Origin: Candidatus Angelobacter sp.
Lineage (GTDB): Bacteria; Acidobacteriota; Terriglobia; Terriglobales; Acidobacteriaceae
DNA length: 64,000 bases
Assembly (NCBI GenBank): GCA_035307585.1
Contig: DATGHX010000052.1
Location: 2,068-66,067 of the forward strand
Reading direction: 5' to 3'
Within the stretch, counting starts at the first letter, position 1. Each line of letters opens with the position of its first letter. The notes beneath the pieces were generated by a model. It worked only from the letters and a program-made list of their open reading frames with translations, had not been told where the DNA came from and made no database searches. Both the position numbers and the translations under genes were made by a program. Below are positions 17,814-34,499 of this stretch, piece after piece.

Positions 17814-19814
17814 TCAGATACGTTTAAACGCTTTCTGAATCTCCTTCACAGAATAGCTCAATACCACGGGACGGCCATGCGGACAGCTCATGGGACACTC
17901 GGTCCGGGCCAGTTCCTTCAGCAGCCACTCCATTTTTTTCTGCTCCAGCGGCATGTTGATCTTGATGGCGGCATGGCAGGCGATCGAGGCCGCGATCCGC
18001 GCCCGGATGGCGTCCAGGTTAAGCGCCTGCTCCTCTTTCTGGAACTGGTCGAGCAGTTCCACCAACATCTGCTCCACCTGCGCCGGCTCGACGCCTGCGG
18101 GCGCAGTCTTCACCGCCACGGTCTTCACGCCGAAAAGCTCTACCTCGAAGCCGTTGCGGCGAAGCTCGTCGGAGATCTCGGTGAACACCGCTTGCTGCGC
18201 CGGTGTGAGTTCCACGATCAGCGGCATCAGCAGCCTTTGTCCCTGATGGGCGAGGTGCGTTTCGCGCCGTTCACGCAGAATCTTTTCGAACAGCACGCGC
18301 TCATGGGCGACATGCTGGTCGATGATCCACAACCCGTCGGCGTTGACGGCGAGAATGAAGGAATCGCGCACCTGTCCCAGCGGCTTCAGGCTGGCCAGCG
18401 CCAGTTGATCGGCGACGGCCTGCGGTTCGTCGGGCAACACGTTGCCGCAGTTGTCGGCGATAGGAATCCTGGTGATCTGGGGCGCGGGTATGGTGCCAAA
18501 GCCGCTGCGGGCGAGGTTGGCTTCCACGACGATGCCGGCGCCGGCAAAAGGAAGCCGCTCATTGATCACCGGCTGCGGAGGAGCCTGCAGCGCGAAGTCG
18601 CCCGGCGGCTGCGCTTCGGGAGCTTCCAACACGGTAGCGATCGCGCTGGCGCGTTCGCCCGCGGCTCCGGCGCGAGGCGCGAACGCTCCCGGACTCAGAC
18701 CGGGCGCGGCGTTGGGCTGGGCGGTGATCTCGCGCGTGAACTGCGGCACCGGGCGGGCCTTCATCAGCGCCGCGCGCACCGAGTCGCGGACAAAGTCGTG
18801 GACCACCGCTTGCTGGCGGAAGCGGACTTCGGTCTTCGCGGGATGCACGTTGGCATCTACCTCAGCGTTGGGCAGCTCGATGAACAACAGCACCACGGGG
18901 AAGACTGTGGGCGGAAGGATGTTGCGATACGCCTCGGTCAGCGCGTGCTGGATCAGGCGGTCGCGCACCAGGCGGCTGTTGACGAAGATGAAGATGGAGT
19001 TGCGGTTGAGCTTCTGTACCTCCGGCTTGGAGACGAAGCCGTGCACACGCAGGTCGCCGGGGACCGCGGGCGAGTACTCTTCGTCGCGGCGCCAGGGGGG
19101 AGGCTCGGGAATGCCGACCCGCTCCAGCTTCATGGCCGCGGCCACCGAGATGAGCTGGTCCAGCGTCTCGCGCCCGAAGATCTGGTAGATGCGCGTGGAG
19201 TGCGACTCCACCGGCGGCGCCACCAGCATGGCACTGGTGGCCGAATGCAGCTCGAAATGCTTCTCGGGATGGGCCAGCGCGTAATGCGTGACCAGCGAGG
19301 CGATGTGCGAGAGTTCGGTGGACTCCGCCTTCAGAAATTTCTTGCGCGCCGGCGTGTTGAAGAAAAGGTCGCGCACGGCGATGGAAGTTCCCGCGGGAAT
19401 CCCGGCCTCTTCCATGCGCAGGATCTTGCCTCCGGCGATCTCCAGCAGCGTGCCCCCGGGTTCGTCGGGCGAGCGCGTCTCCATGGTAACGCGGGCGACG
19501 GAGGCGATCGAGGGCAGCGCCTCGCCGCGAAACCCAAGCGTGTGGATGTTCAGCAAGTCGTCCGCGTCTTTGATCTTGGAGGTGGCGTGGCGCTCGAAGG
19601 CCAGCAGGGCATCGTCGCGCACCATACCGCAGCCGTCGTCCACCACCTGGATCAACTTCTTGCCGCCCGCCTCCACCTGCACGCGAATGCGGCCGGCGCC
19701 GGCGTCCAGAGAATTTTCCAGCAGCTCTTTGAGTACGGAAGCGGGACGTTCCACCACCTCGCCGGCGGCGATCTTGTTGGCCACGTGTTCCGAGAGCAGG
19801 TGGATGCGCCCCAT
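17814..19814 (-). CDS. mutL: DNA mismatch repair protein MutL
   Basis: N-terminal ANKIAAGEVVERPASVLKELLENSLDAGA (GHKL ATPase) and a C-terminal CPHGRP motif. Confidence 0.9.
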   Translation of the reverse strand: MGRIHLLSEHVANKIAAGEVVERPASVLKELLENSLDAGAGRIRVQVEAGGKKLIQVVDDGCGMVRDDALLAFERHATSKIKDADDLLNIHTLGFRGEALPSIASVARVTMETRSPDEPGGTLLEIAGGKILRMEEAGIPAGTSIAVRDLFFNTPARKKFLKAESTELSHIASLVTHYALAHPEKHFELHSATSAMLVAPPVESHSTRIYQIFGRETLDQLISVAAAMKLERVGIPEPPPWRRDEEYSPAVPGDLRVHGFVSKPEVQKLNRNSIFIFVNSRLVRDRLIQHALTEAYRNILPPTVFPVVLLFIELPNAEVDANVHPAKTEVRFRQQAVVHDFVRDSVRAALMKARPVPQFTREITAQPNAAPGLSPGAFAPRAGAAGERASAIATVLEAPEAQPPGDFALQAPPQPVINERLPFAGAGIVVEANLARSGFGTIPAPQITRIPIADNCGNVLPDEPQAVADQLALASLKPLGQVRDSFILAVNADGLWIIDQHVAHERVLFEKILRERRETHLAHQGQRLLMPLIVELTPAQQAVFTEISDELRRNGFEVELFGVKTVAVKTAPAGVEPAQVEQMLVELLDQFQKEEQALNLDAIRARIAASIACHAAIKINMPLEQKKMEWLLKELARTECPMSCPHGRPVVLSYSVKEIQKAFKRI

Positions 19815-20005: not shown

Positions 20006-20088
<83 letters not shown>

Positions 20089-20128
20089 CAGGCAGTTAGA
20101 GTGAGTTTCCCCGATAATCCGCGCTGTC

Positions 20129-20151
20129 ACTTTAAGGACGACTTTAAGGAC
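20129..20151 (+). repeat. paired ACTTTAAGGAC direct repeats (arm-type recombinase site candidate, attL side)
   Basis: ACTTTAAGGAC at 20129-20139 and 20141-20151 (12-bp period), 41 bp inside the island from the core repeat. Confidence 0.4.
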
Positions 20152-20451
20152 CCAGCGAATTTCCTCACGGTGTCCCAGACGAGTTTGAGAAAAAGTTTGA
20201 GGACCTCTTACGGTTCAAAAGTCTATTCAATGCAGAACCGACTTGGTGCCGAAGAAGGGACTCGGCAGCGGTCGCGGAAAGCCCTCGTAAACAGTGGCTA
20301 AATCCTTGGTTATCAAAGACCCCTAGTTGGCCCATTTTGAGCAGGATTTCAGACGCCATTGAGTTGGCACGGCGGATTTATCAGAAGGATGAAGAATGAC
20401 TTTCCGCGTTAGAATGCGGAAGCAGACGCATCGCAGGAGTAAGCGCGAAAT

Positions 20452-23007
20452 ATGTTCGACAGGTCGGGCAACGATATGGAGCCGAGTTACAAAACCAGCG
20501 AAGAGGCATTCCAGGCTTTTCTAGCCTTAAAGGGTGATCTTCCAAAGTACGACCTGAGTGGTCAGACAGAAGCTGACACCAGAGCTCGCCTAATTACACG
20601 TTTGCTGACCGATGTCCTGGATTGGCAACCAGAACAGATCAAACGAGAAGAGCATGCCCATCCCGGATACATGGATTATGTGCTCCTAACGAATCGCCGG
20701 ATCGCGGTTGTAGAAGCGAAGCGATCAGGCGATGTTTTTCATTTGCCAAACGATCTTTCACGAGTTAAGAATCTCCGTCTCGCCGGTGTCGTGAGAACGG
20801 TCAAAAACCTCCAAACACACATTTCGCAAGTGTTTGGATATTGTTCCAACAACGGCATCGAATATGCGGTAGTGACGAATGGTCTTCAGTACGTGATTTT
20901 TCGAGCGATCCGCACTGATGGAATTCACATTGGTCAAGGACGCGTCATTGTATTCCCCAGCTTTGATGACATCGAGCAGCGGTTCGTTGAATTCTGGTCC
21001 CTCCTCGCAAGGCCCAATGTCGAAAACAATTCTCTCGTAAGAGCGTTCCAGCCCGATGCAGCGGTCTTGTTTCAGTACAAGCGATTGGCCGACCAGGTGC
21101 ACACTTATAGAGAAAAGGTTTCTCGAAACCGATTGAGTCGCGACCTTGAACCACTTTTAGCGGAATACATGGGAGAGATCGCGGGGGTCGAGCAAGCACC
21201 AGAAAAACTCAAACGGTTGTATGTAAGAAGCACCGCCCTTAGCGAGGTTTTAGAGGCTGTTGGTCAAAAGATTTCGCTGTCCCTTTCCGCGACCATCAAA
21301 CAATCGGGCAGAGTGATAGAGCCAAAAGCGACTGAAGAGTTGAAAAAAGGCCTGCAGCAGCAGGTTCAGTCACACGTGTCACTTCCCGTAAGATCGCAAG
21401 ATGTGCTTCTCCTCGGACGTGTTGGTTCGGGCAAAACCACATTTGTCACGCATTTCTTGACTGTTGATCTCGTGACGCTTCTTAAGGGGCACATCGTTGT
21501 TCAAATCGACTTTCGGCTCTTGGAAAAGGGAGGTCGTATTTCAAGCTTCTTTTACGATACCCTGCACAAGGTGCTTACAAAGAATCAACGATTCACTGAT
21601 TTGACTTCGAAGCAACTCAGACACATATATACTCCTGAAATTAGAGAGCTTTCGGTCGGTCCTCTGGCCGTTCTCGAACGCACTAATAAGAAGAGGTATG
21701 AAGAAAAAATTGCCGACTTTCTCATGGAGCAGTATAAGAAGCCAGAAATCCACTATGTAAGGGTTCTACGATACTTGGCTGAGAAACAAGGTGTTCGATC
21801 TTTTGTGTTTTTCGACAACGTAGACCAACACGATTTCGACTCGCAACAGGAGATATTTACCTTTGCTCACTCGGTAGCCGCGAAATGCCATGCATTCGCA
21901 ATAGTCACTATGTGGGAAGAGACGTTTATCCGGTCGAAACAAAAGGGAGCACTCTCGGCCTACCAGACGCCAGCCTACAGCGTACCGCCGACGAGCGTAG
22001 TGGACATTATTGTTCGCCGCCTCGAGTACATGGTAGACCAAATCAGAAGCGGCGGCCTGGCAAGGGCATTGATCATCAATCGTCAAAATACCCAGGATGT
22101 TCAAGACTTTCTGGAGCTTGTTCGTGTGTCATTGTTGCATGATAAGAAACGAGCACGGTTCTTTCTAGAGTCGATAGCGATGGGAAATTTGCGCAAAGCA
22201 ATGGACGTCTTCTCGTCTTTTCTCGTTTCTGGACATACGGACGCACTTAAGATGCTCGACACTGTTCGTGAGACCAGGGGCTATTTGATTCCTTTGCACG
22301 AATTCATAAAGTCTATCGGGTTGGGAGAATACCGTTTTTACTATGGTGATCTGAGCTATGTGCTAAATGTTTTTTCAATTTCAGACGAATCGCGCCCGTC
22401 GCATTTTACAAAGCTCCGACTCCTAGAGTACCTCTTTCATCACCGTAATCGTTCAACAGCACTCGGAATCGGGTTTATAGGGATTGATTTTATTCGCTCT
22501 GACTTTCAACGTATTGGCACAAGCGAAGCTGATCTGACAGAGTCGTTGAAAGTCTTGTCGCGATTTTTGTTGGTGGAGAATGATGTCTACGATGCGGACA
22601 GAACCGGCCATGGTTATCGGATCACCGCAGCAGGTCGGTATTACTTACGTTATTTAGTCAACAAATTCACATATCTCGATTTGGTGCTACAGGACACACC
22701 GATTGCAGACAATACTGCATTTGAAGAAATGAAGGACCTGCTTACCAGCCGGGAGTTGGAGGATAGATTTGCCCGCGTCGAAACCTTCTTAACCTACTTG
22801 CTCGCAGAAGAAGAGCGGGAGCATTCGGCAGTTCTCAGCACGAGTGAGTCCATTCCCCTTCGGCAGAAAATGATGCCACCCATAATTACCGATTTCCATT
22901 CGGACAAGGACTTCATTAGATCCAAAAGAAGGCGAAGGAGAAAGGGTGAGCCAACACCATACATATCGGAGGATCAAGAGGATTCTTCCGGAGCAACGGC
23001 CGACTGA
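20452..23007 (+). CDS. PD-(D/E)xK nuclease (HsdR-N/Mrr-like) fused to a P-loop NTPase (STAND/NACHT- or ORC-like) with a helical C-terminus
   Basis: 851 aa. N-terminus has TEADTRARLI..GYMDYVLL..IAVVEAKRSG..QVFGY..VVTNG. Walker A is LLLGRVGSGKTTF (aa 320-331) and Walker B-like is FVFFDNVDQ (aa 451-459). It is the only plus-strand gene of the island. Confidence 0.65.
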   Translation: MFDRSGNDMEPSYKTSEEAFQAFLALKGDLPKYDLSGQTEADTRARLITRLLTDVLDWQPEQIKREEHAHPGYMDYVLLTNRRIAVVEAKRSGDVFHLPNDLSRVKNLRLAGVVRTVKNLQTHISQVFGYCSNNGIEYAVVTNGLQYVIFRAIRTDGIHIGQGRVIVFPSFDDIEQRFVEFWSLLARPNVENNSLVRAFQPDAAVLFQYKRLADQVHTYREKVSRNRLSRDLEPLLAEYMGEIAGVEQAPEKLKRLYVRSTALSEVLEAVGQKISLSLSATIKQSGRVIEPKATEELKKGLQQQVQSHVSLPVRSQDVLLLGRVGSGKTTFVTHFLTVDLVTLLKGHIVVQIDFRLLEKGGRISSFFYDTLHKVLTKNQRFTDLTSKQLRHIYTPEIRELSVGPLAVLERTNKKRYEEKIADFLMEQYKKPEIHYVRVLRYLAEKQGVRSFVFFDNVDQHDFDSQQEIFTFAHSVAAKCHAFAIVTMWEETFIRSKQKGALSAYQTPAYSVPPTSVVDIIVRRLEYMVDQIRSGGLARALIINRQNTQDVQDFLELVRVSLLHDKKRARFFLESIAMGNLRKAMDVFSSFLVSGHTDALKMLDTVRETRGYLIPLHEFIKSIGLGEYRFYYGDLSYVLNVFSISDESRPSHFTKLRLLEYLFHHRNRSTALGIGFIGIDFIRSDFQRIGTSEADLTESLKVLSRFLLVENDVYDADRTGHGYRITAAGRYYLRYLVNKFTYLDLVLQDTPIADNTAFEEMKDLLTSRELEDRFARVETFLTYLLAEEEREHSAVLSTSESIPLRQKMMPPIITDFHSDKDFIRSKRRRRRKGEPTPYISEDQEDSSGATAD

Positions 23008-23012
23008 CTGTT

Positions 23013-24281
23013 TCAGCATTCCTCCGGCAACAGAGCCGTCGTCGCCGTCCGCTTGCCGTCATCCGCGCCTTTCTGGAAGTCTTGAGTTTGTTGTCGGGCG
23101 CTAATCGTCTCAACCGCACCTCGCAACTCATCGAGCGTAAAGTGTCCGTAACGAGCGGCCATCTGCACCGTGGTGCTAGGGCTCCAACCAACTATCTTGG
23201 CAATTTTCATCAGCGGTACGCCGGCGTCAATCATCCGCGAAACTGCTGTGTGGCGCAGATCGTGAAAGCGGCAGACAAGGGGTTGGATTTCATTTTCGTT
23301 GTCGTCGTCAGAACCCTCTGTCAATATCTCTGTTGCGCGAACCCTGGCTCTCTCCCAAGCCTCTTTCACGTCACCAACGGGGCGGGTCACGTCCAAGTCG
23401 TATGACATGCCCTCAGTGAATCCAAAGTGATCTTTCTTGCCTCCTCCTCCATACTTCTGAGTTGGAAACACGAAATGCTCAGGCTTACGGTCAGGAAATT
23501 CACTGGCCCAGAATTGAAGTGTTGCCATGGCACGAGGTGAGAGAGGGACAACTCGCCCTGTGCCTGCTTTGGTCTTGTCTTTCCCAAATTTCAGACAACG
23601 ATTTTGGAAGTCAACATTACCCCACTGGAGGGTTCTGATGACATTGAATCGCGCACCTGTTTCAAGGGCAAGTGTGACGAAGGGCAAGAGACAGCGAGAA
23701 CGTGAAAGAGAGCAAGCTTGGAGGAGGGCACGCTCCTCATCCACCGTGATTGCTCGTCCAACGTCATCTCTTACCGGTAGCATCCTCACGTTAGGTTGCA
23801 CCCGGGCCCACTGACCATGTTTCTTTAGGATTGCTCTCAAGGTCCCGATCTCAAGATTGATTGTTGCCGGTGACGCCCCCTCGCCAAGGCGTCTCTTTTG
23901 ATATTGGGAGATGTCTTCTGCGGTAATGTCTGATACAAGCTTCTTGCCTAACACCGGCAGCAGGTGAAGATCAAGGTTTGTGTTCTCAATTGTAAGAGAA
24001 GAGGCCGCGAGTGAAGTCTTCTTGGCTTCAAGATAGGCCTGGGCAGCAAACGACAGCAGTCTGGGAGCGTCAGGCTTGCGGATGCCGGTAAGGCCGGTCT
24101 CAAGCTCATACTTCCTCTTGGTCTGCACCTTTCTCGCTATTGTGAGTGAACGTGTCTTGGTCGATTCCTGAATCAGTGAGCCTTGAAAGTGAAATTGCAT
24201 CCACCAGATTTGTGATTTCTTTTTCTCACCAGTCTTTTGATCCCTGTATGTCGGCCTATAGAGCGCCATGAGCACCCCCAT
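23013..24281 (-). CDS. int: tyrosine-type site-specific integrase
   Basis: LALETGAR (catalytic Arg), RFHDLRHTAVS (H-x-x-R), IVGW, and the nucleophile Tyr in AARYGHF. Confidence 0.9.
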   Translation of the reverse strand: MGVLMALYRPTYRDQKTGEKKKSQIWWMQFHFQGSLIQESTKTRSLTIARKVQTKRKYELETGLTGIRKPDAPRLLSFAAQAYLEAKKTSLAASSLTIENTNLDLHLLPVLGKKLVSDITAEDISQYQKRRLGEGASPATINLEIGTLRAILKKHGQWARVQPNVRMLPVRDDVGRAITVDEERALLQACSLSRSRCLLPFVTLALETGARFNVIRTLQWGNVDFQNRCLKFGKDKTKAGTGRVVPLSPRAMATLQFWASEFPDRKPEHFVFPTQKYGGGGKKDHFGFTEGMSYDLDVTRPVGDVKEAWERARVRATEILTEGSDDDNENEIQPLVCRFHDLRHTAVSRMIDAGVPLMKIAKIVGWSPSTTVQMAARYGHFTLDELRGAVETISARQQTQDFQKGADDGKRTATTALLPEEC

Positions 24282-24320
24282 TTGTATACTGTTCTCGGGG
24301 CATGACTCGGGGGATGGTCA

Positions 24321-24941
24321 TCATTCTTTCCCACTCACGATCCGCTTGATCGTGTCCGGATGGACCCTGAAGAGTGGGGCAATTTCGGTCCATGTCTTGC
24401 CCTCACGCCTGAGTCGTTTGGCTTGTTCCTTCTGATCTGGCGTGAGGGATGATGGTCTGCCTCCAACGCGTCCATCTGCCCTGGCTTTGAGGAGACCTGC
24501 CTTTGTGCGTTCAGATATCCGGATCTTTTCTTGACGGGCGACCGCAGCAAGGATCCCTAGGACTGCATCGCGGAAAACACCAAGGCTGTCTAAATACTGT
24601 TCCGTAAAGCTTAGGTATCCGACGCCATAAGAGGTTAGCTGTTGGAGATAATTCAGCGTTGGCAGAACGCCTTCTCTGCTGAGTCGATCCAGCGACCAAA
24701 ACAGAAGCACATCAAACTTGCGCTGGCTTGCGTGGAGGAACATCTCTTTCTGTCTGGGTCGTTCAGCCTTTGCGCCGGAGCAGACATCCACGTATTCAGC
24801 AACAATTGCATATCCCTGACGCTGGCAGTATTCACGCAGTTGGGTAAGCTGATTTTCATTGTCCTGGTCCTTGGTTGACACCCGGCTGTAAAGAGCGACC
24901 CGCAAGCTGCTGGCCTGCGGGCCTATGGCCTGCGTTGTCAT
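24321..24941 (-). CDS. serine recombinase (resolvase/invertase type) with C-terminal HTH
   Basis: VALYSRVSTKDQDNENQ catalytic-Ser motif plus a C-terminal TWTEIAPLFRVHPDTIKRIV HTH. Start set at the ATG that overlaps the upstream stop (ATGA at 24938-24941). Confidence 0.85.
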   Translation of the reverse strand: MTTQAIGPQASSLRVALYSRVSTKDQDNENQLTQLREYCQRQGYAIVAEYVDVCSGAKAERPRQKEMFLHASQRKFDVLLFWSLDRLSREGVLPTLNYLQQLTSYGVGYLSFTEQYLDSLGVFRDAVLGILAAVARQEKIRISERTKAGLLKARADGRVGGRPSSLTPDQKEQAKRLRREGKTWTEIAPLFRVHPDTIKRIVSGKE

Positions 24942-25327
24942 TTCTTCCCCCAACCGCACTCAACGGCAATTTTCATGATCGCCAGACAATCAGTCCTGAG
25001 AGTTGCGATGGTGCTCTTTCTCTTCTCAACGTCCGCTGCGTCCCAACCGCCATCAATAAGCATTTGTGAGATTTCGTCCACAGTGTTCTCTGGGTTTTGC
25101 AACACGAGTCTGCGTGTAGTTGTCGAGATAGACGGAGTTTTCGGGTTGTCGTCCTTCACCTTCTGTGGAGGTGCGGATTGACTTGGCGAAGCATGAGTCT
25201 TATCCACGGGTGCGGCAGGCGCAGCTGTCTCGGGTTGAGCTGACTGCGCTGGCTCTGGAGCAACTTGCTCATCGTGCTTGTGATTCTTTTTCGCGTTTTC
25301 TTTTTTCTTCACGATTCCACCTCTCAT
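24938..25327 (-). CDS. hypothetical protein (Lys/Pro-rich N-terminus)
   Basis: 129-aa ORF, first gene of the apparent 129aa-resolvase-integrase string. No motif recognised. Confidence 0.45.
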   Translation of the reverse strand: MRGGIVKKKENAKKNHKHDEQVAPEPAQSAQPETAAPAAPVDKTHASPSQSAPPQKVKDDNPKTPSISTTTRRLVLQNPENTVDEISQMLIDGGWDAADVEKRKSTIATLRTDCLAIMKIAVECGWGKK

Positions 25328-25358
25328 ATTTACTAAATAGTAACTACTGATGCGTTAC

Positions 25359-25387
25359 GTATAAGTACCGCACCGGGAAGAAGTCAA
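25359..25387 (-). promoter_or_regulatory. sigma70-like promoter candidate (TTGACT-17-TTATAC)
   Basis: Minus strand reads GGTTGACTT, then a 17-nt spacer, then TTATAC, about 30 nt upstream of the ATG at 25327. Confidence 0.3.
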
Positions 25388-25842
25388 CCTTTTTCTTTGG
25401 CAAAAACGAAGATTTTTTCCTTATGTAATCGAGAAATGAGAACTGCTTTGTTTTCAGGAGGAGTTAATCAGAACTTTTAAATACGTTTTTGCTTGCCAGG
25501 CTGAACAACTCGAAGCGGGGAGAATTTCACGATGATTTGCTGCCTATCTCAGCGGCATCACAAACGAGGGGGCGGAAGTCACACGGGTTCGGCCTTGATC
25601 CAACAGCTACCCATGACAACTCACTGCTCGTCTATGTTTGTTTTTCTTGTTGTTCTCAAGTTTCTTTTACAGGAGCTTCTGGCGTGAAAAACTCAGGCGT
25701 GGTTTTTTAATTGTGGTAACTTTTTTGTGAGTTGTCGCCCATCTTTGCGTTGCTCATTCTGCGACATGCTCTCGTACCAGCCAGCACCTATCCCTAGCGC
25801 AGCGCCCAAGTAAAGCCATCACGCTGGTAATCTGAAACGGGT

Positions 25843-25881
25843 CACAAAGAAATGAGGGCAGTGCTGAATTCACTACCCTCA
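25843..25881 (-). terminator. rho-independent terminator candidate
   Basis: Imperfect 11-bp stem TGAGGGCAGTG/CACTACCCTCA (one mismatch) with a 7-nt loop. Followed on the minus strand by TTTCTTTGTG, about 60 nt after the stop at 25942. Confidence 0.4.
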
Positions 25882-25941
25882 TCCCTCCCGCCGCCTCCCA
25901 TCAAAAGGAAGATGATTGATGGGGCAGGAAACTTTAAATTC

Positions 25942-26388
25942 TCATATGCAGAGCCCCTCACGCAGGCATAGCATTTTCTCCTCAGCAAATGTCGCTAGCG
26001 CCTGATTGAATTCTTTGAGTGCATTGCCAACTCTCTCCCGCAGCATCTGCTCAGTTAGAGTGTCTCCGATCGGTAGCCTCATCTCGTGCACGACGTCGAG
26101 CGATGAAAAGTTGATGCCGCGATTCCTGTTCTTGGCTAGAAACTCGGCGTGCTCATTGGTAGCTTCCTGGAGGGACGCATCAGTTTCTTTGACCCTTTGC
26201 AATGCGATCTCGAACCGCTCGCGCGCGGTAAGTTGGACAGCCGGGGGTGTCTCTTTGATTTGCTTCCGTGGTAGCAGGCCCATTTCAATATCCCCTGTGT
26301 GGTTCACTTTCAGAAAACGAGTGAGCCCGACGCTGAGAAGCAGCTCCTCCAGATAAAACGGGTTAATGTTTTGGGCAAACCGGATCAT
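25942..26388 (-). CDS. hypothetical protein
   Basis: 148-aa ORF starting 9 nt after the stop of the upstream 80-aa ORF. No motif recognised. Confidence 0.5.
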   Translation of the reverse strand: MIRFAQNINPFYLEELLLSVGLTRFLKVNHTGDIEMGLLPRKQIKETPPAVQLTARERFEIALQRVKETDASLQEATNEHAEFLAKNRNRGINFSSLDVVHEMRLPIGDTLTEQMLRERVGNALKEFNQALATFAEEKMLCLREGLCI

Positions 26389-26397
26389 GTGAAAAAC

Positions 26398-26640
26398 CTA
26401 ACCCGCCTTCTGATATGACGGTTCAACGACATTGAAATCAGCATTGATTCGTTTACCCAACCCAAAAACGGTTCTGTTTTCTGGATTGTCACGCACGACA
26501 ATGTTGATTTGCTCATCCAGCCTCTCAAACCCGACGTCGCCAGACAGACGATTGAAATCAGGGTAAAGCGTAATGATGAGACGTTCTTTGATCGCAAGTG
26601 ACTGAGCGACTTTAATCACTACGAAAGATATGTTGAACAT
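26398..26640 (-). CDS. hypothetical small protein (80 aa)
   Basis: Internal ATG at 26640 is preceded by a GGAGAG SD. The longer ORF-track version would run through a terminator hairpin. Confidence 0.4.
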   Translation of the reverse strand: MFNISFVVIKVAQSLAIKERLIITLYPDFNRLSGDVGFERLDEQINIVVRDNPENRTVFGLGKRINADFNVVEPSYQKAG

Positions 26641-26712
26641 TTCACTCTCCAGAAATAGAGGTGCTGATTGAGCAGGTTCTCTGAAGCAGCACCTCCACTT
26701 TTTCCTGCAACA

Positions 26713-26754
26713 GGAGAAAACTTTAAAGAGGTGGAGATGGGTACCCTCCACCTC
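26713..26754 (-). terminator. rho-independent terminator candidate
   Basis: Perfect 9-bp stem GAGGTGGAG/CTCCACCTC (26728-26754) with a 9-nt loop, followed on the minus strand by TTTAAAGTTTTCT. Confidence 0.45.
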
Positions 26755-26887
26755 TGCTTTCGCCACCAATCGCCTTGGTCATCGCTTCGACTAACCCCTG
26801 TTGAGCTGCATTAGCCTCGCTTGCAAGTCACCCTCTGCATCAGAGGGTCATTCAACTGGCGGCGAAAAACCCTACCGTTTCTCGCCA

Positions 26888-27082
26888 CTACCTCAAGTCA
26901 GAACTGCGAGCACTTGCAGTTGGCCCGTTAAACTGGGTTCGGTCTCGGCTGCAACGTAGGCTGTCGCCCACCACATGCACCAGATCACTCAGACCACATG
27001 TCGGGCAAGGAGCAATCCTTGGGAGTGCGGTGACTTTTGCATGTTGAACAGTTGGGATCGATTCAACCGACGTTTTACTCAT
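26888..27082 (-). CDS. small Cys-containing (zinc-ribbon-like) protein
   Basis: 64 aa containing CPTCG...LRCSRD. Its ATG overlaps the stop of the upstream small ORF (ATGA). Confidence 0.4.
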   Translation of the reverse strand: MSKTSVESIPTVQHAKVTALPRIAPCPTCGLSDLVHVVGDSLRCSRDRTQFNGPTASARSSDLR

Positions 27083-27255
27083 CTCTCACTCCCTCTCTCC
27101 TTGAGCAATTTCTCAATGCTGATCAATCGCAGCAAAATTGCAGCCTGAATCTTGAGGTGATGAGCGTTGATGGTCTCGGCAATATTCTGAGGTGGGAAAA
27201 TGCCTCCTTTTTCCCACTGACCATCTGCAAGTGCTTTTAGCTGCTCGTCGTCCAT
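27079..27255 (-). CDS. unlisted 58-aa ORF (below the ORF-track length cutoff)
   Basis: Hand translation gives MDDEQLKALADGQWEKGGIFPPQNIAETINAHHLKIQAAILLRLISIEKLLKERGSER. A GAGGGTGAT SD-like sequence precedes the ATG. It fills the gap between two coupled genes. Confidence 0.35.
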   Translation of the reverse strand: MDDEQLKALADGQWEKGGIFPPQNIAETINAHHLKIQAAILLRLISIEKLLKERGSER

Positions 27256-27262
27256 ATCACCC

Positions 27263-27709
27263 TCAGTTTGCGTCTCTTGCAGCTTCGACTAGTGCGCCCT
27301 TCATCAACAACCGAAATTTGCCGACTTCTTGGGCAAATCTCTCCGGAGTAAATACTTGATTCATCTGAGCAAAAAGTTTGGTCATCTGAAGTGTCAACCG
27401 CGCCCTTGCGCGCTCCTTTGCAGTTGGCAGTTCGGAACGAAACCCCCCGTCATCATCCACGCCCAACTGAATCTCGCCCAGCATCTTGGTGACGTCTGCA
27501 TCCCTCAGCTCGTCGCGAGTTAGTGATTTCGTGATGCTTGGGCCAAACAGTGCTCGGATATCCGCGCTTTCGGGGCTGAGAGCCTGTTGCCGGTTGTAGT
27601 CAACAAGACCTGCCCTCGTCATCGGCAGCTCACCATCATCAATGAGTGGAGCCTCATCATCCAAACCGGCCAAAAGATCTTCTAAATCAAATGGGACATC
27701 GTTTTTCAT
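27263..27709 (-). CDS. acidic hypothetical protein (148 aa)
   Basis: ATG at 27709 preceded by GGAGGAAG, 4 nt after the upstream stop. N-terminus is rich in D and E. Confidence 0.5.
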   Translation of the reverse strand: MKNDVPFDLEDLLAGLDDEAPLIDDGELPMTRAGLVDYNRQQALSPESADIRALFGPSITKSLTRDELRDADVTKMLGEIQLGVDDDGGFRSELPTAKERARARLTLQMTKLFAQMNQVFTPERFAQEVGKFRLLMKGALVEAARDAN

Positions 27710-27713
27710 GAAA

Positions 27714-28118
27714 TCAACTTCCTCCGCTTTCCTGATCAATTGCAACAGAGGCAACAGTCGTGATGGTTCTCTGTTCCACATTCACTAACTTTTGGTACAA
27801 CTTGTGAACCGCGCTCTGCCCGCCGTTGCCTTCTGGCACCATCTCGAAATATCCGTGGAACATGTGGGAAAAGTTTGCCTCACCTATCGTCTCCCTTATT
27901 TCCCTGAAAGCGAAAACTGATCCCCTCAAAGCTGCCTGGATGAGATGGTCACACAGTAACTCTGCGTATGTTTTTCCCGATCCAGAATCCACCTGTTCCA
28001 ATTTTTGTCTTAGGGCGGTTCTGAGAAGGGCTGTTCGCGGTCGTCCACCAGGGTTCCCCGAGACGCCCTTTAACCCGTCGCGCCACGTCAGCCTGCCGCT
28101 TTGAGTGTCACCGTCCAT
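27714..28118 (-). CDS. GNPGGRP-motif protein (DUF5681 / small-terminase-like family of phages and mobile elements)
   Basis: SGNPGGRPRTALL followed by a helical region. The family assignment is from motif recall only. Confidence 0.45.
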   Translation of the reverse strand: MDGDTQSGRLTWRDGLKGVSGNPGGRPRTALLRTALRQKLEQVDSGSGKTYAELLCDHLIQAALRGSVFAFREIRETIGEANFSHMFHGYFEMVPEGNGGQSAVHKLYQKLVNVEQRTITTVASVAIDQESGGS

Positions 28119-28437
28119 TTCGAAACTCCTTCAGCGCGAAACCTTCAAATTGCGAATGGGGCAGGTTTCTCCTCTGACGTGGTCTAAAGAAATCACGGCG
28201 CACAAATTCCTTGCGAAGTTCCTCTTGAATACGAGGCGATAAGTCCACGATGTCGAATGGCCGCCGGCCAATCAAAATTGAAGGCCCCATCACATCGTGG
28301 CCAATTTCGTGGAAGAGACAACCATGGATGGTTACGTCGCCATCGTCAGATTGAAAAACCAACGAGAATCTTTTCAAGGCGGGATTGGCAAGAGGTTTCG
28401 TATCGGCGACAACGCGAAGCCGGAAATCCACGTACAT
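28108..28437 (-). CDS. hypothetical protein
   Basis: 109-aa ORF overlapping the next gene by 11 nt. No motif recognised. Confidence 0.4.
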   Translation of the reverse strand: MYVDFRLRVVADTKPLANPALKRFSLVFQSDDGDVTIHGCLFHEIGHDVMGPSILIGRRPFDIVDLSPRIQEELRKEFVRRDFFRPRQRRNLPHSQFEGFALKEFRNGR

Positions 28438-28540
28438 TTACGTATGTGGCTTTTTTAAAAAAGTCAACCTCGAAAACAGAGGTGAAACGGGGAATTCCAA
28501 AAATAATTTTGTAAGCTAAGAGGCTCTTCTCAAAGCTCAA

Positions 28541-29215
28541 TCACTTTTCCATTTGGAGCAGCGATGTATATCTTAGAACTTGACCAATAAACCTGTGTTT
28601 GCCTCGCGCCTTCGAGTTGAGCCACCAATATGGCCCAAAATTGAGGGCCAGATAACCAGCTGATCCAACGCCGACCCAAAATACACTTATCTCATATTGT
28701 GAGTAGGGCATTCTAAATTGGTCCTCAATGATTTCTTTTGGCACATCTTTCAGCAGAAACGATGCAGCCGCGATAATGAAGGCTATCGTTTGACGGCCGG
28801 TGAATTCAATCCGATCTCTCTGAAGTGAATCATGAAGGCTTGCTAACTTATCAAAATCATAAGCTGGATATCGAGCGATCAGTTCACTTGACAAAGAGTG
28901 AACCACATAATCAGACGCGCACACGCGGTAAAAGTCAGAGCGCTTATCCTCGTCTGATGCCGTGGCGTAAACATCGTGTATAACGTCGATCTTCTTCCCG
29001 CTGAGTAAATCCCTGCTAGGCGTAAAAGTCCCATGCACTATCCGCCACGTGAAGCGGATAGGATGCCTGAACATGTTCTTAGCCCAGTATCTTTTCCATA
29101 GGCGCGCCCACAGCTGCCGCCGGAAATCCTCGTAAGCAGTCAAGTACGAGACGACATTGTCAAGTTGTTCTTGCAGATTTGGACTTGCGGGAGTCTGTTG
29201 CGGTTGTGAAGCCAT
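28541..29215 (-). CDS. hypothetical membrane protein with two C-terminal TM helices
   Basis: 224 aa. Hydrophobic segments are IAFIIAAASFLL and ISVFWVGVGSAGYLALNF. The N-terminal ~140 aa are soluble and unrecognised. Confidence 0.55.
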   Translation of the reverse strand: MASQPQQTPASPNLQEQLDNVVSYLTAYEDFRRQLWARLWKRYWAKNMFRHPIRFTWRIVHGTFTPSRDLLSGKKIDVIHDVYATASDEDKRSDFYRVCASDYVVHSLSSELIARYPAYDFDKLASLHDSLQRDRIEFTGRQTIAFIIAAASFLLKDVPKEIIEDQFRMPYSQYEISVFWVGVGSAGYLALNFGPYWWLNSKARGKHRFIGQVLRYTSLLQMEK

Positions 29216-29272
29216 TTTGCAGCATTCTGCTCGAAAACAACCTGTTTCGCAAGGGTCATGGGTCTCACGATC

Positions 29273-30019
29273 TCAAGGCTGTTCGCCAAAAGTCGATTTT
29301 GTTAGCGCATTTGTCCCTGCCGCCTTAGCTGCTTTCTTCTCACGAGATTTCCCAAGCAGATTCCATGGGGGTTGAATTACGCGGATTAAACCCCCCTCCA
29401 ATCCCGCTGCGGTATTGACAGGAAGACCGTGCCATTCATAGGAATTCTCAGGCTTGGCGGTTAGCACTTTTACTTGTTTGCCTGCTGCCAATTCTGAGGC
29501 AATGAGTTTCTTGATTCTCGCGCTGGTTTTTTGCCGTTCATATCCGCGACGGTAATGCCCCATTCGCGTTCTGAATCCCCGCTGTGCTAACCCGACATAT
29601 ACAACCAAGTCGTCAACCAGGAACGCATACACCCCTGCCGCCGTCGGCGCTTTGGCGCTGAGTTTCAATTCGCCATCTCCGAGCGCAATCCAGTCACCAA
29701 GATATTCAAACCCGGCACGAAGGAGCGCATCGCCTGGCGTCGGCTTAGGAGGCTTTGCGTCGACTTCGATCGTTACGGGAGGTCGCTCAAATTCCTCTTT
29801 GTGCTTGAGGCCTCCAGTGATTCCAGCATCGAGCAGTACCTTGCGGACATGCTGGTATCGAATATCCAAAATCTCAGCAATCTCAGCGCGCTTATAGCCA
29901 GCTTGATTAAGGGCGCGGATCTTGTCTGACTTTGTTGTCAGGCCTTGGATCACGGTGTCGGGCGTGGGGCGCTGCACTCTGTTCACTCCTCTCTCGTTTC
30001 GAAAAGGCAGTGAGAACAC
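29273..30019 (-). CDS. HTH + GIY-YIG nuclease domain protein
   Basis: N-terminal HTH-like KIRALNQAGYKRAEIAEILDIRYQHVRKVL. The C-terminal half has GVYAFLVDDLVVYVGLA ... RTRMGHYRRG ... LEGGLIRVIQPPWN (GIY-x9-YxG, then Arg, Glu, Asn). Confidence 0.65.
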   Translation of the reverse strand: MFSLPFRNERGVNRVQRPTPDTVIQGLTTKSDKIRALNQAGYKRAEIAEILDIRYQHVRKVLLDAGITGGLKHKEEFERPPVTIEVDAKPPKPTPGDALLRAGFEYLGDWIALGDGELKLSAKAPTAAGVYAFLVDDLVVYVGLAQRGFRTRMGHYRRGYERQKTSARIKKLIASELAAGKQVKVLTAKPENSYEWHGLPVNTAAGLEGGLIRVIQPPWNLLGKSREKKAAKAAGTNALTKSTFGEQP

Positions 30020-30043
30020 GCGCTACTAGAATTGACCATCACG

Positions 30044-31354
30044 TTATGTCTTCCTCGAATGGTGGATAAGAACTAGCGCGTCTAATATGTGTTCGGCGAG
30101 TTGACACGCCTGCTCCATCACTCTGAGATTTGCTTTCCAAAAGGACGTTGATGCGGGGCGAAGTTTCGCACGTGAGAACTCTGCGAGAACGTCCACCAAC
30201 TGCTGATCTTTCATATGCACACCTCTGCCTCTTGTTTCTCTGAAAGGCAAGAAGAGGCGAATCTTGTCCGCCCGGACATTAGCCTGCGACAGATCCACCT
30301 CAACCGTTGAATCGAAGGGTAAAACGTGATGAAACGCGTAGCTCCTCGCATTGGAGACAATTGACTGATATTCGCTGAGTTTTTCTTTGCGGCCCAAAGC
30401 CGACCACGGCAACGCTGCAAACGCCCTGTACAGCGCCCAGTGCTGCTTGATCGTGCACCAAAACACTAAGGGTTTTAGATCGCAGATGCTGGTAAACAAT
30501 GAGATCAAGGGTACTGTGTCGCTGCTGAAATTATAGGCAAGCCTCAAGACCTCGTTCAGGGATTTTGAGTCGTCCGGTAACTCTTCAAGCTTCTTCAAGG
30601 CTTCTTTGTATTCATCTGCCTGGTTACGAAGAGAGGCCAAGATTTTCCCAAGCACTGTATCATCGGGGTGATGAACGCCAGCCGTTGGGAGGACGACATC
30701 TGTTATGGCTGCGTCACTGAGTCGATCGTAAACATCGGCGATGGCTCGGCTGCTTTCGAGTGATAGCCCCCCTTCTTTCTCCAAATCGCGTGCAATCACC
30801 TCGAGTAAATCTTCCGGAGGCACTATTTTTTTTATTGCATACACGCCTGGTGCGATTCTTTGAATGTCTGGATCTGGCAGAGATGGCAGCAGGCGAAGCT
30901 CCTTGACCGAAGCGGTCTCGACCTTGTGCGCATCTGGCCGCAGTCCTTTCATCGTGCCAATGAGCACAAAGATCAAATCTCCAACTGTCGCAAGTTCCTG
31001 AGCAACAGCGTCAGTGAGAGAAATCAGGTGCGCAGTCTCCTTTGTAGACAGAACCTTGTAGTGGTTCTTGACGCTAGTGTCGTCGCAGGCAGAAATCCTG
31101 CCCACCGATACCTTCTTCCCCGTAGCCGACAATTCCACGACTATTCGTCTCTGGGATTGATTTGTTTTAAAGATCTGTTTCTCTCTCGAAAGAAATGAGC
31201 TGTTTATTGCCAGATATGTCGTCGTGTTCCTGCCGATCGTGGCCCTTCCAATTTCATCAAATACTGAAGCCATTTGCTGGACGACCGAATCTACGGCTGA
31301 AAGGATCTTGTTTTCTATCTGGGTGTTAGCTACCGACCTGACATTCTGACTCAT
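30044..31354 (-). CDS. hypothetical 436-aa protein
   Basis: Long uninterrupted ORF with AT-rich, island-type codon usage. No P-loop or methyltransferase motifs. The only match is a weak R-x4-H (NARSYAFHH). Confidence 0.6.
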   Translation of the reverse strand: MSQNVRSVANTQIENKILSAVDSVVQQMASVFDEIGRATIGRNTTTYLAINSSFLSREKQIFKTNQSQRRIVVELSATGKKVSVGRISACDDTSVKNHYKVLSTKETAHLISLTDAVAQELATVGDLIFVLIGTMKGLRPDAHKVETASVKELRLLPSLPDPDIQRIAPGVYAIKKIVPPEDLLEVIARDLEKEGGLSLESSRAIADVYDRLSDAAITDVVLPTAGVHHPDDTVLGKILASLRNQADEYKEALKKLEELPDDSKSLNEVLRLAYNFSSDTVPLISLFTSICDLKPLVFWCTIKQHWALYRAFAALPWSALGRKEKLSEYQSIVSNARSYAFHHVLPFDSTVEVDLSQANVRADKIRLFLPFRETRGRGVHMKDQQLVDVLAEFSRAKLRPASTSFWKANLRVMEQACQLAEHILDALVLIHHSRKT

Positions 31355-31513
31355 GTTGAGCCTATTATGTCTCGAAGTTACCTCCCGTTTGTTCGCCGAA
31401 ACGCACCTTTTCGCTATTTGGAAAATGGCTGTCTAATGGGGCGCTAAAAAATAGGCTGCTAATGAATACTCACGTTCTGCTGGGCCGCTACGCCTATGAT
31501 GGGAGGAATTCCC

Positions 31514-32400: not shown

Positions 32401-32429
32401 TTATAAAATCCTCCTTTGCCAAAAGTCAA
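32401..32429 (-). promoter_or_regulatory. sigma70-like promoter candidate (TTGACT-17-TTATAA)
   Basis: Minus strand reads GGTTGACTTTT, then a 17-nt spacer, then TTATAA, upstream of the Rep-like gene block. Confidence 0.3.
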
Positions 32430-32437
32430 CCGCTGCA

Positions 32438-32590: not shown

Positions 32591-32603
32591 GGTCTTTACT
32601 CGA

Positions 32604-34300: not shown

Positions 34301-34446
34301 AGTCGAGAAAGAAATCGACGGCACGTGACGGTAAATGACGGTAGTCGAAAAATCAAGCTAAGTCGTTGACTCTAAATGGCAACCGCCAATTTTGTCTTGG
34401 CGCTTCAAGAGTTTACAATCTGTCAGGAGAGCACGAAGAATTCTGC

Positions 34447-34499
<53 letters not shown>

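What the first reader, a model, noticed from the sequence alone, without database searches (positions are those of the whole stretch)
20452..23007. 851-aa PD-(D/E)xK nuclease / P-loop NTPase fusion between attL and int: candidate single-gene defence system
The N-terminus (aa ~35-150) has the HsdR-N/Mrr-type nuclease pattern TEADTR..., D in GYMDYVL, E-x-K in VVEAKR, QVFGY and VVTNG. A linker follows, then Walker A GRVGSGKT (nt ~21415-21438) and Walker B-like FVFFDNVDQ (aa ~451-459). After that come ~390 aa of helical sequence with no motif I recognise. An N-terminal nuclease effector, a central NTPase switch and a variable C-terminal sensor is the architecture of Avs/bNACHT-like STAND defence proteins. 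This protein is much shorter than them and I cannot assign it to a named family. It is the only plus-strand gene in the island and converges on int with 5 nt between the stops. It occupies the att-proximal cargo slot where mobile elements often carry defence genes.
Basis: partly seen in the sequence, partly recalled or inferred. Interest (0 to 1): 0.7.

Follow-up and report, generated by a model that had tools for sequence, protein, structure and literature searches.

The report
Unnamed single-gene nuclease–ATPase defence candidate
This 851-residue gene belongs to a large, unnamed protein family that joins a restriction-type DNA-cutting domain to an ATP-driven switch and a DNA-binding fold; it travels alone on prophages, plasmids and genomic islands, often next to known anti-phage genes, so it is a good but untested candidate immune gene.

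Summary
In 219 full-length relatives the nuclease D-ExK/QxxxY residues and Walker A/B residues are 97-100% retained.

The family is large (at least 1,485 clusters at 50% identity with E<=1e-30) and its architecture is fixed: HsdR-type PD-(D/E)xK nuclease, helical linker, ORC/Cdc6-STAND-like NTPase with lid, winged helix, short helical tail. It has no conserved partner gene. It rides on lambdoid and P2-like prophages, phage-plasmids, IncF plasmids, an ICE and small integrase islets. In at least 8 of about 49 loci it abuts known or candidate defence genes.

No PADLOC, Pfam or NCBIfam model covers it, and every source calls it hypothetical.

The Avs/bNACHT reading is only partly right. The protein has no large or hypervariable sensor. 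The best fold matches are ORC/Cdc6, and the lid carries an AAA+-type sensor-2 arginine.

I conclude it is a new variant of the nuclease-NTPase single-protein defence class. It probably works as an NTP-gated, self-assembling DNase directed by nucleic acid. Function is untested.

The parts
20006..20080 (+). tRNA-Asn (GTT), the integration target of the island
   Evidence: ARAGORN; Rfam tRNA, 72 bits
20031..20088 (.). attL: left copy of the 58-nt direct repeat, overlapping the 3' end of the tRNA
   Evidence: the repeat finder family D1
20452..23007 (+). The 851-aa nuclease-NTPase-wHTH gene (stop codon included). An alternative start at ATG 20476 (Met9) matches the N-termini of homologues.
20554..20961 (+). 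HsdR-N-type PD-(D/E)xK nuclease domain (aa ~35-170): E40/R44 helix, D75, E88-x-K90, Q126xxxY130, N143-G144
   Evidence: Invariant columns; HsdR 3H1T E=4.7e-4; HSDR_N/HSDR_N_2 in 11 and 15 of 34 members; a phage 'HsdR N-terminal domain' protein by Foldseek, E=3e-4
20962..21351 (+). Helical linker (aa 171-300), the least conserved segment (mean pairwise identity 0.22)
21352..21981 (+). P-loop NTPase core (aa ~301-510): Walker A G322-T329 (nt 21415-21438); Walker B hhhhD455-N456-V-D458-Q (nt 21802-21828); W488 where 176 of 219 relatives have Arg
   Evidence: AAA_16 25 bits, below cutoff; family-wide Pfam hits; Foldseek ORC4/Cdc6/NLR; residue retention
21982..22326 (+). Helical lid (aa ~511-625) with R523 and the motif G-[ND]-x-R581-x-A-L. 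I read this motif as an AAA+ sensor-2 equivalent.
   Evidence: R523 and R581 kept in 218/219; weak hit to the pol III gamma lid; the sensor-2 reading rests on my own knowledge of AAA+ motifs
22408..22665 (+). Winged helix-turn-helix (aa ~653-738), preceded by the conserved H616-E-F and N639 loop
   Evidence: H-H-H-E-E topology in both models; weak MarR/PadR hits (TcaR 0.076, PadR 0.34; Rv0047c and MepR)
22666..22941 (+). C-terminal helical hairpin (aa ~739-830); the remaining ~20 residues are disordered and basic
23013..24281 (-). Tyrosine integrase of the island, convergent with the gene
   Evidence: Phage_integrase 5.6e-20
24321..24959 (-). Serine recombinase (resolvase/invertase)
   Evidence: Resolvase 7.9e-31; phrog_125
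34442..34499 (.). attR: right copy of the 58-nt repeat (97% identical)

Best explanation
The gene encodes a stand-alone defence nuclease carried as cargo by mobile elements.

What is shown: an intact HsdR-type PD-(D/E)xK nuclease is fused through a helical linker to an intact P-loop NTPase of the ORC/Cdc6-STAND assemblage, followed by a lid, a winged helix and a short helical tail. There is no partner gene.

What is inferred: the NTPase-lid-winged-helix module is a nucleotide-dependent switch that keeps the nuclease off in uninfected cells. On meeting invader nucleic acid (foreign DNA, or a replication or packaging intermediate) the module binds it through the winged helix. In distant relatives an added cold-shock or S1 domain would help. 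With NTP bound, the protein self-assembles, which brings two or more nuclease domains together to cut DNA. The result is destruction of the invader or abortive infection.

The invariant Asn in Walker B (D-N-x-D) suggests slow hydrolysis, which means a long-lived 'on' state and not a motor.

I put the umbrella claim (an NTP-gated defence nuclease) at about 0.65. I put this specific nucleic-acid-triggered version at about 0.45.
For: Both catalytic centres are under strong purifying selection in 219 members. The architecture is fixed across at least 1,485 clusters at 50% identity.

No neighbour is conserved: the best neighbour cluster occurs in 4 of 41 loci.

Carriers are mobile elements:
- the tRNA-Asn island in this window
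- E. coli lambdoid prophages, in the moron slot between the replication genes and hokD/nin
- a P2-like remnant and a phage-plasmid
- IncF and other plasmids
- an ICE
- a Mycobacterium integrase/resolvase islet
- an archaeal locus next to a terminase gene

The distribution is patchy and copies decay often: 8 of 5,426 E. coli genomes, with one copy cut by IS1 and one split, and about 8 of 41 copies disrupted.

PADLOC-confirmed defence neighbours occur in at least 8 of about 49 loci: DRT UG9 + PolA, Tmn, SIR2 + TIR, PDC-S28, Type II R-M, Type I HsdR, two Type IV-like enzymes, and HEC-06. Against the 1.5% background in PMC13581612, P=1e-4 for the six loci with established systems and P=8e-7 for all eight.

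Evidence for the nucleic-acid-directed version:
- ORC4/Cdc6/Orc1 are the best fold matches, E=7e-6.
- The lid carries a sensor-2-like R581.
- The winged helix resembles MarR/PadR proteins.
- P0095 has a C-terminal cold-shock domain, and P0096 has an S1 domain.
- There is no large or hypervariable sensor.
Against: No experiment exists for any family member.

The enrichment test uses a background rate taken from a different tool. Significance fades if the true background on mobile elements is 5% or more. Neighbours 5.5-10 kb away are also rich in defence genes, so the signal may be partly a general property of islands.

STAND-type features also exist: an Arg in 176 of 219 members at the position where, from my own knowledge, STAND proteins carry sensor 1; a D-x-x-D Walker B as in NACHT and KAP; no obvious arginine finger; and sub-threshold nSTAND5 and NACHT hits. 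A protein trigger therefore cannot be excluded.

No DNA-binding or oligomerisation evidence was obtainable. The winged-helix matches are weak (E 0.08-3).
Confidence: 0.45

Rival explanations
1. It is an Avs/NLR-like pattern-recognition receptor. The region after the NTPase binds a conserved phage protein, ATP-dependent oligomerisation follows, and the N-terminal nuclease degrades DNA indiscriminately (abortive infection).
For: The domain order (effector, then NTPase, then C-terminal module) matches Avs. Foldseek also hits NRC2, CED-4 and ZAR1 at E about 1e-4. Sub-threshold nSTAND5, NACHT and NPHP3_N hits occur in 17, 10 and 6 of 34 members. Most members (176 of 219) have an Arg at the position I equate, from my own knowledge, with STAND sensor 1, and no arginine-finger candidate is seen. 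The defence context is the same as for the best explanation.
Against: There is no repeat or large sensor. Only about 340 aa follow the NTPase, below the 400-aa sensor threshold used in the STAND census (PMC13581612). The C-terminal part is not hypervariable. No PADLOC Avs or NLR model matches 11 diverse members. ORC/Cdc6 proteins outrank the NLRs in the fold search. The lid has an AAA+-type sensor-2 arginine, which STAND proteins typically lack (my own knowledge).
Confidence: 0.2
2. It is a modification-dependent (Type IV-like) restriction enzyme. The winged helix reads modified phage DNA, the NTPase licenses cleavage, and the absence of a methyltransferase is explained because only modified DNA is cut.
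For: It is a solitary nuclease-NTPase gene with no cognate methyltransferase. JGI pipelines call several members 'predicted type IV restriction endonuclease'. It carries an HsdR-type dsDNA nuclease.
Against: No PADLOC mREase_IV model matches the family. No known modification-reader domain (SRA, EVE, ASCH, YTH) was detected by Pfam. In one locus the gene is flanked by two Type IV-like enzymes, which argues for a complementary role and not a redundant one.
Confidence: 0.1
3. It serves the mobile element itself and not host defence. For example, it could be an ORC-like replication or partition factor, an integration accessory, or a weapon against competing elements only.
For: The ORC/Cdc6-like fold with a winged helix is the fold of replication initiators. 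In E. coli prophages the gene follows the replication module. It lies next to int and resolvase in the window and in Mycobacterium. TnsC is among the fold hits.
Against: The same protein at 90% identity or more sits in elements that have their own, unrelated replication systems: lambdoid prophages and IncF plasmids. It is also found in an ICE, a P2-like remnant and plain chromosomal sites. It is frequently disrupted without loss of the element. No transposase or other partner is conserved. The integrases of two carrier islets are only 22% identical. A fully conserved restriction-type nuclease site is not a feature of initiators.
Confidence: 0.12
4. It is an orphan or decayed Type I restriction R subunit that needs HsdM/HsdS partners encoded elsewhere.
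For: The N-terminal domain is homologous to the HsdR nuclease domain. Some RefSeq records name relatives 'type I restriction endonuclease'. One locus (L019) abuts a PADLOC-confirmed Type I HsdR, and Type I methyltransferase and specificity subunits occur among near neighbours.
Against: There is no SF2 helicase motor. The centre is a different P-loop class. Type I genes are confirmed next to it in only one of the loci assigned individually, and the only recurrent large neighbour cluster is in 4 of 41 loci. The full-length architecture is conserved across about 1,500 clusters, which is not a decay pattern.
Confidence: 0.03

Closest known systems
Avs (AVAST) proteins with N-terminal Mrr- or Cap4-type nucleases, e.g. 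Avs3 and Avs4
   Same: A single polypeptide with an N-terminal PD-(D/E)xK effector followed by an NTPase of the STAND/ORC lineage with lid and winged helix. Encoded in defence islands and on mobile elements.
   Different: Avs proteins are 1,000-2,000+ aa with large TPR-like sensors that bind phage proteins. This family is about 830 aa, has no repeat sensor, carries a sensor-2-type arginine and a D-N-x-D Walker B, and matches no PADLOC Avs model.
Type I restriction R subunit (HsdR), nuclease domain
   Same: The N-terminal domain is homologous, with the same D...E-x-K and QxxxY motifs.
   Different: HsdR couples the nuclease to an SF2 translocase and needs HsdM/HsdS. Here the nuclease is coupled to an ORC/STAND-type switch NTPase and the gene is solitary.
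ORC/Cdc6-clade ATPases of conflict systems (BrxC/PglY, DUF499, SspC, Orc/Cdc6 + REase + HerA 'capture' operons)
   Same: An ORC/Cdc6-like AAA+ core followed by a helical bundle and a winged helix, associated with restriction-fold nucleases in anti-invader contexts (PMC12839542, PMC10853773).
   Different: Those are parts of multi-gene systems. The REase there is separate, C-terminal, or an inactive insert between the ATPase and the wHTH, and BrxD/BrxC keep an arginine finger. Here an active HsdR-type nuclease is N-terminal, the gene is alone, and no arginine finger is evident.
KAP NTPase defence proteins (Tmn)
   Same: D-x-x-D-type Walker B. KAP_NTPase matches 11 of 34 members weakly. Both are single-gene defence candidates.
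   Different: Tmn has transmembrane segments and no nuclease. The PADLOC Tmn model does not match this family; it matches a neighbouring gene in one locus instead.
McrBC and other NTP-dependent Type IV restriction enzymes
   Same: An NTPase-licensed PD-(D/E)xK nuclease with no cognate methyltransferase.
   Different: McrB is a GTP-specific ring AAA+ protein with a separate McrC nuclease and a dedicated reader domain. No PADLOC Type IV model matches here.

Membership tests
Avs / antiviral STAND | STAND-class NTPase core (NBD-HD-WHD) | tested here: inconclusive
   The fold matches both ORC/Cdc6 (E=7e-6) and NLRs (about 1e-4). STAND Pfam models score below threshold.
Avs / antiviral STAND | Large C-terminal sensor (TPR-like or beta-propeller, typically 400 aa or more) | tested here: not met
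   Only a lid, a wHTH and a roughly 90-aa tail follow the NTPase. There are no repeats and no significant PDB analogue. The region is not hypervariable.
Avs / antiviral STAND | Match to curated Avs/NLR defence models | tested here: not met
   PADLOC 2.0 on the window protein and 10 diverse relatives gives no Avs or NLR hit. DefenseFinder and the 589-clade table of PMC13581612 could not be consulted.
Avs / antiviral STAND | Activation by a conserved phage protein | not testable with these tools
   Needs co-expression or binding experiments.
bNACHT / NACHT | NACHT domain at the Pfam gathering score | tested here: not met
   12.5 bits against a cutoff of 26.7 for the window protein. Ten of 34 members reach E<0.01.
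Type I restriction HsdR | HsdR-type PD-(D/E)xK nuclease domain with the QxxxY motif | tested here: met
   Profile hit to 3H1T residues 17-130, E=4.7e-4, with the motifs aligned. Q126 is kept in 213/219 and Y130 in 219/219.
Type I restriction HsdR | SF2 helicase/translocase motor and HsdM/HsdS partners | tested here: not met
   No ResIII or Helicase_C domain. A Type I HsdR neighbour is confirmed in only one locus, L019, and the only recurrent large neighbour cluster is in 4 of 41 loci.
ORC/Cdc6-clade AAA+ | AAA+ core, helical lid and C-terminal winged helix | tested here: met
   Foldseek top hits are ORC4, Cdc6 and Orc1 over about 500 aligned columns. The wHTH topology is present.
ORC/Cdc6-clade AAA+ | Sensor-2 arginine in the lid | tested here: met
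   G-[ND]-x-R581-x-A-L is kept in 218/219. Calling it sensor 2 rests on motif knowledge and a weak hit to the pol III gamma lid.
ORC/Cdc6-clade AAA+ | Arginine finger and a D-E Walker B | tested here: not met
   No conserved Arg lies between beta4 and beta5. Walker B is D-N-x-D with Asn in 219/219.
Type IV restriction (McrBC, Mrr, GmrSD, SauUSI) | Match to mREase_IV models or a known modification-reader domain | tested here: not met
   No PADLOC mREase_IV hit to the family. Pfam finds no reader domain.
PHROG phrog_14719 (function unknown) | Full-length profile match | tested here: met
   E=3e-102, residues 19-808 against profile positions 7-805 of 833.
DefenseFinder 'FS_HsdR_like' (PICI-encoded single-gene system) | Sequence match to the HsdR_like model | not tested
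   This lead comes from memory only. The source paper and model are not available here.

The most novel reading that the evidence does not exclude
The family is a previously unrecognised, widespread class of minimal immune nucleases that has no separate sensor domain. An ORC/Cdc6-like ATP switch with its winged helix recognises invading DNA directly, much as a replication initiator recognises an origin, and then licenses an HsdR-type nuclease by self-assembly. This would be an intermediate between replication-initiator AAA+ proteins and STAND immune receptors.
Probability: 0.25. Interest if true: 0.7.

Novelty: new variant of a known kind. Interest (0 to 1): 0.5.

Why it matters
If confirmed, this would add a compact (about 830 aa) single-gene system to the nuclease-NTPase defence class. 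It is widespread across at least a dozen bacterial phyla and some archaea, and it occurs on E. coli prophages and Klebsiella IncF plasmids, where it may affect phage therapy and plasmid spread.

Mechanistically it sits between ORC/Cdc6 initiators and STAND receptors. It has a sensor-2 arginine, no arginine finger, an invariant D-N-x-D Walker B and no repeat sensor. It could therefore show how a minimal NOD-like module gates an effector, and how immune STANDs arose from DNA-binding AAA+ proteins.

The E. coli copy makes it directly testable.

Tried and rejected
- Direct family searches with the window protein (Pfam, NCBIfam, PADLOC, PDB by sequence) gave only sub-threshold or P-loop hits.
- The full-length profile against the PDB was dominated by generic P-loop matches such as ABCE1 and G-alpha, so I split the profile by region.
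- tblastn against INPHARED phages found nothing, despite the PHROG match.
- BFVD held no full-length viral analogue.
- The C-terminal-only fold search gave no significant hit.
- The 34-sequence alignment was too diverse for the genome scan. A 14-sequence subset worked.
- I first suspected a shared mutL-adjacent hot spot in the window and in the Bryobacteraceae locus. I rejected this: that locus has no tRNA and a different gene order.
- A TnsA/TnsC-like transposition fusion was considered and rejected because no transposase or other partner is conserved.
- Hailibu and the 15 other nuclease-NTPase systems of bioRxiv 2025.07.10.664194 do not share this architecture.
- Searches for the architecture, the accessions and phrog_14719 in the literature found no description.
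- The FS_HsdR_like lead could not be checked.
- The other island genes remain unidentified.
- Rfam found only the tRNA.
Full report
**1. The observation**

The ORF at 20452-23007 (+) is real and encodes 851 aa. A Shine-Dalgarno-like AGGAG lies 12 nt upstream of the start, and the stop codon is 5 nt from the stop of the convergent integrase gene.

tRNA-Asn lies at 20006-20080. A 58-nt direct repeat at 20031-20088 and 34442-34499 (97% identical) bounds a 14.4-kb segment of about 49% GC in a context of about 61% GC. The gene is therefore the first gene inside attL of an integrated element. That element also carries a tyrosine integrase and a serine recombinase.

**2. The motifs are not chance**

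A homologue search returned 96 clusters. Most complete members are 790-880 aa, and identity ranges from 62% down to 23%. An exhaustive profile search of 1.84 billion representatives found 7,588 proteins at E<=1e-3 and 1,485 at E<=1e-30. Most of the top 150 are 790-875 aa with end-to-end matches.

Retention in 219 full-length members:
- Nuclease: D75 217, E88 219, K90 217, Q126 213, Y130 219.
- NTPase: K328 219, D455 219, N456 219, D458 219.
- Lid and beyond: R523 218, R581 218, N639 216.

Both catalytic centres are under purifying selection.

**3. Domain anatomy**

The full-length AlphaFold model is confident (pLDDT 84.7, pTM 0.69).

*Nuclease.* A profile of residues 1-215 hits only one PDB sequence, the nuclease domain of a Type I HsdR (3H1T, E=4.7e-4). 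The EADT helix, D, E-x-K and QxxxY...TNG motifs all align. HSDR_N_2 and HSDR_N match 15 and 11 of 34 members. Foldseek against BFVD finds a phage 'HsdR N-terminal domain' protein.

*NTPase and what follows.* Foldseek against the PDB aligns about 500 columns. ORC4, Cdc6 and Orc1 come first (E 7e-6 to 1e-4), followed by NRC2, CED-4, ZAR1, TnsC and DnaA. Pfam hits across members are AAA_16 (28 of 34), AAA_22 (22), nSTAND_NTPase5 (17), KAP (11), NACHT (10) and ATPase_2 (9). For the window protein they are all below the curated thresholds.

*Lid.* The lid carries G-[ND]-x-R581-x-A-L. From my own knowledge of AAA+ motifs I read this as a sensor-2 arginine, typical of initiator and clamp-loader AAA+ proteins. 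A weak hit to the pol III gamma lid agrees.

*Walker B and sensor 1.* Walker B is D-N-x-D with an invariant Asn where AAA+ proteins have the catalytic Glu. The second Asp recalls NACHT and KAP. At position 488, the equivalent of sensor 1, 176 of 219 members have Arg. The window's clade (39 of 219) has Trp. I found no conserved arginine-finger candidate.

*C-terminal region.* Residues 505-851 were modelled separately (pLDDT 89, pTM 0.85). They comprise the lid, a conserved loop, a winged helix and a helical hairpin. Searched alone, this region has no significant PDB analogue (best E about 1). Only weak PadR/MarR winged-helix resemblance appears.

*Divergence by domain.* Mean pairwise identity is 0.34 for the nuclease, 0.22 for the linker, 0.27 for the NTPase, 0.30 for the lid, 0.24 for the wHTH and 0.26 for the tail. 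So there is no repeat-type or hypervariable sensor.

**4. Genomic ecology**

*No partner gene.* Clustering all ORFs within 7 kb in 41 loci found no partner. The best neighbour cluster occurs in 4 loci, flanking genes vary in strand and spacing, and about 8 copies are disrupted.

*Taxonomic spread.* The genome scan found 60 loci among about 186,000 species genomes. They fall in Acidobacteriota, Desulfobacterota, Planctomycetota, Verrucomicrobiota, Chloroflexota, Bacteroidota, Firmicutes, Myxococcota, Gemmatimonadota, Alpha- and Gammaproteobacteria, and one Bathyarchaeia archaeon.

*Carriers are mobile elements:*
- 31 plasmids, where the neighbours include IS elements, an integrase, a Type II R-M system and VapBC
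- an ICE with a VirB4/TrbI type IV secretion system
- a Mycobacterium islet with integrase, excisionase and resolvase, whose integrase is only 22% identical to the window's
- a P2-like remnant and an SSU5-like phage-plasmid in Klebsiella
- an archaeal locus beside a terminase
- two different E. coli lambdoid prophages, in both cases in the slot between the replication genes and hokD/nin/Q

*Rarity and recent transfer.* Only 8 of 5,426 complete E. coli genomes carry it. One copy is cut by IS1 and one is split. One cluster at 90% identity (270 members) spans E. coli, Klebsiella, Serratia and Enterobacter, and every member is called hypothetical. The match to phrog_14719 (E=3e-102) fits carriage by prophages.

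**5. Defence association, tested and not assumed**

| Locus | Neighbouring gene(s) | PADLOC E-value |
|---|---|---|
| L071 (= L012) | DRT RT_UG9 + RTasPolA | 4e-168, 3e-116 |
| L003 | Tmn | 8e-78 |
| L079 | TIR (PDC-S66/ThsB) + SIR2 (Dsr1/ThsA-like) | 2e-61, 1e-13 |
| L073 | PDC-S28 helicase | 2e-290 |
| L001 | Type II methyltransferase | 2e-45 |
| L019 | Type I HsdR | 3e-223 |
| L047 | two flanking Type IV-like enzymes | 2e-109, 5e-54 |
| L043 | HEC-06 | 8.5e-32 |

Batch scans of 148 near ORFs and 148 distal ORFs both contain many defence hits, so these regions look like extended defence islands.

At least 8 of about 49 independent loci have a confirmed defence neighbour, 6 of them with established systems. 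Against the 1.53% background reported in PMC13581612 this gives P=8e-7 and P=1e-4.

Caveats: the background comes from a different tool, the locus choice was only partly unbiased, and significance is lost if the background on mobile elements is about 5-8%.

**6. Comparison with what is known**

No PADLOC 2.0 model covers the window protein or 10 diverse relatives, including the E. coli copy. There are only local hits, such as the HsdR-N-like N-terminus of DrmMI. NCBIfam has no model.

The 16 nuclease-NTPase systems of bioRxiv 2025.07.10.664194 and the ORC/Cdc6-centred systems of PMC12839542 and PMC10853773 have different architectures or are multi-gene.

The 2026 STAND census (PMC13581612) may include this family among its 589 clades. 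Its tables are not held here, and its sensor analysis excluded C-terminal regions under 400 aa.

The DefenseFinder system FS_HsdR_like is an unchecked lead from memory.

**7. Interpretation**

What is shown: a fixed fusion of an intact HsdR-type nuclease with an intact ORC/STAND-type NTPase and a winged helix; solitary; cargo of mobile elements; associated with defence islands; unnamed.

What is inferred: it is a defence nuclease whose NTPase module acts as a nucleotide-dependent switch.

I favour a nucleic-acid-directed trigger, for four reasons. The best fold matches are ORC-like. The lid has a sensor-2 arginine. The protein has a winged helix, and distant relatives add a cold-shock or S1 domain. 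There is no protein-sensor domain.

An Avs-like protein trigger, modification-dependent restriction and a role in the mobile element's own maintenance remain rivals.

The gene is not a housekeeping or core-genome gene, and it is not a restriction subunit with obligate partners.

**8. Verdict**

The gene belongs to an unnamed, sizeable family that is best described as a new variant of the single-protein nuclease-NTPase defence class. Interest is moderate (0.5). New defence candidates are common. This one is widespread, compact, mechanistically intermediate between ORC and STAND proteins, and directly testable in E. coli.

Noticed in passing
window 20031-34499: The 14.4-kb tRNA-Asn island has clean 58-nt att repeats. 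Apart from int, the resolvase and one phrog_1111 endonuclease-like protein (29273-30019), none of its roughly 12 other genes matches Pfam, PHROGs or NCBIfam, so the type of element is unknown.
   Followed up: partly
L077 14001-16505; L078 12001-14505 (E. coli chromosomes): In two different E. coli lambdoid prophages, at different integration sites, the homologue occupies the same slot between the replication genes (replisome organizer, DUF977) and hokD/nin/RusA/Q. Only 8 of 5,426 complete genomes carry it; one copy is cut by IS1 and one is split.
   Followed up: partly
cluster of L077:14001-16502 and L002:7950-10451: One cluster at 90% identity or more (270 members) is shared by E. coli prophages and by plasmids of Klebsiella, Serratia and Enterobacter. 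This implies recent movement between genera and between types of mobile element.
   Followed up: partly
window 21817-21819 (Asn456): The Walker B motif is D-N-x-D, with Asn invariant in 219 of 219 members at the position where AAA+ proteins have the catalytic Glu. This is a family signature that predicts slow hydrolysis or an unusual catalytic arrangement.
   Followed up: no
window 21913-21915 (Trp488): At the position I equate with sensor 1, 176 of 219 relatives have Arg. The window's clade (39 of 219) has Trp, so NTPase chemistry may differ within the family.
   Followed up: no
P0095 (973 aa, Pseudomonas donghuensis), P0096; plasmid hits H18, H21: Distant relatives carry an extra OB-fold nucleic-acid-binding domain. 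P0095 has a C-terminal cold-shock domain (aa 831-886); P0096 has an S1 domain.
   Followed up: partly
L047 6649-14752: In Methylotuvimicrobium sp. KM1 the gene is flanked on both sides by large Type IV-like restriction enzymes (PADLOC mREase_IV, 2e-109 and 5e-54).
   Followed up: partly
L071 12664-15899: In Acidobacteriaceae TAA166 the gene sits 167 nt from a DRT UG9 reverse transcriptase and its associated PolA-like gene, inside an ICE that has a VirB4/TrbI type IV secretion system.
   Followed up: partly
L082 and L020: Archaeal copies exist. One locus has histone, thermosome and CDC48 genes with the family member next to a terminase gene. One Bathyarchaeia MAG also carries a copy.
   Followed up: no
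window 32416-32748 (+): A 110-aa plus-strand ORF lies in the gap between minus-strand genes. It could be a divergent regulator, in which case the studied gene would not be the only plus-strand gene of the island.
   Followed up: no
window 20452 vs 20476: Homologues start at a position aligned to about residue 12. The true start may therefore be Met9 (ATG 20476), although the AGGAG motif favours ATG 20452.
   Followed up: no
window 17814-19814; L007 15981-17963: mutL lies within a few kb of the family member both in the window and in a Bryobacteraceae MAG (MutL proteins 53% identical). Gene order differs and that locus has no tRNA, so this looks coincidental. It does suggest the host is an Acidobacteriota bacterium.
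   Followed up: yes
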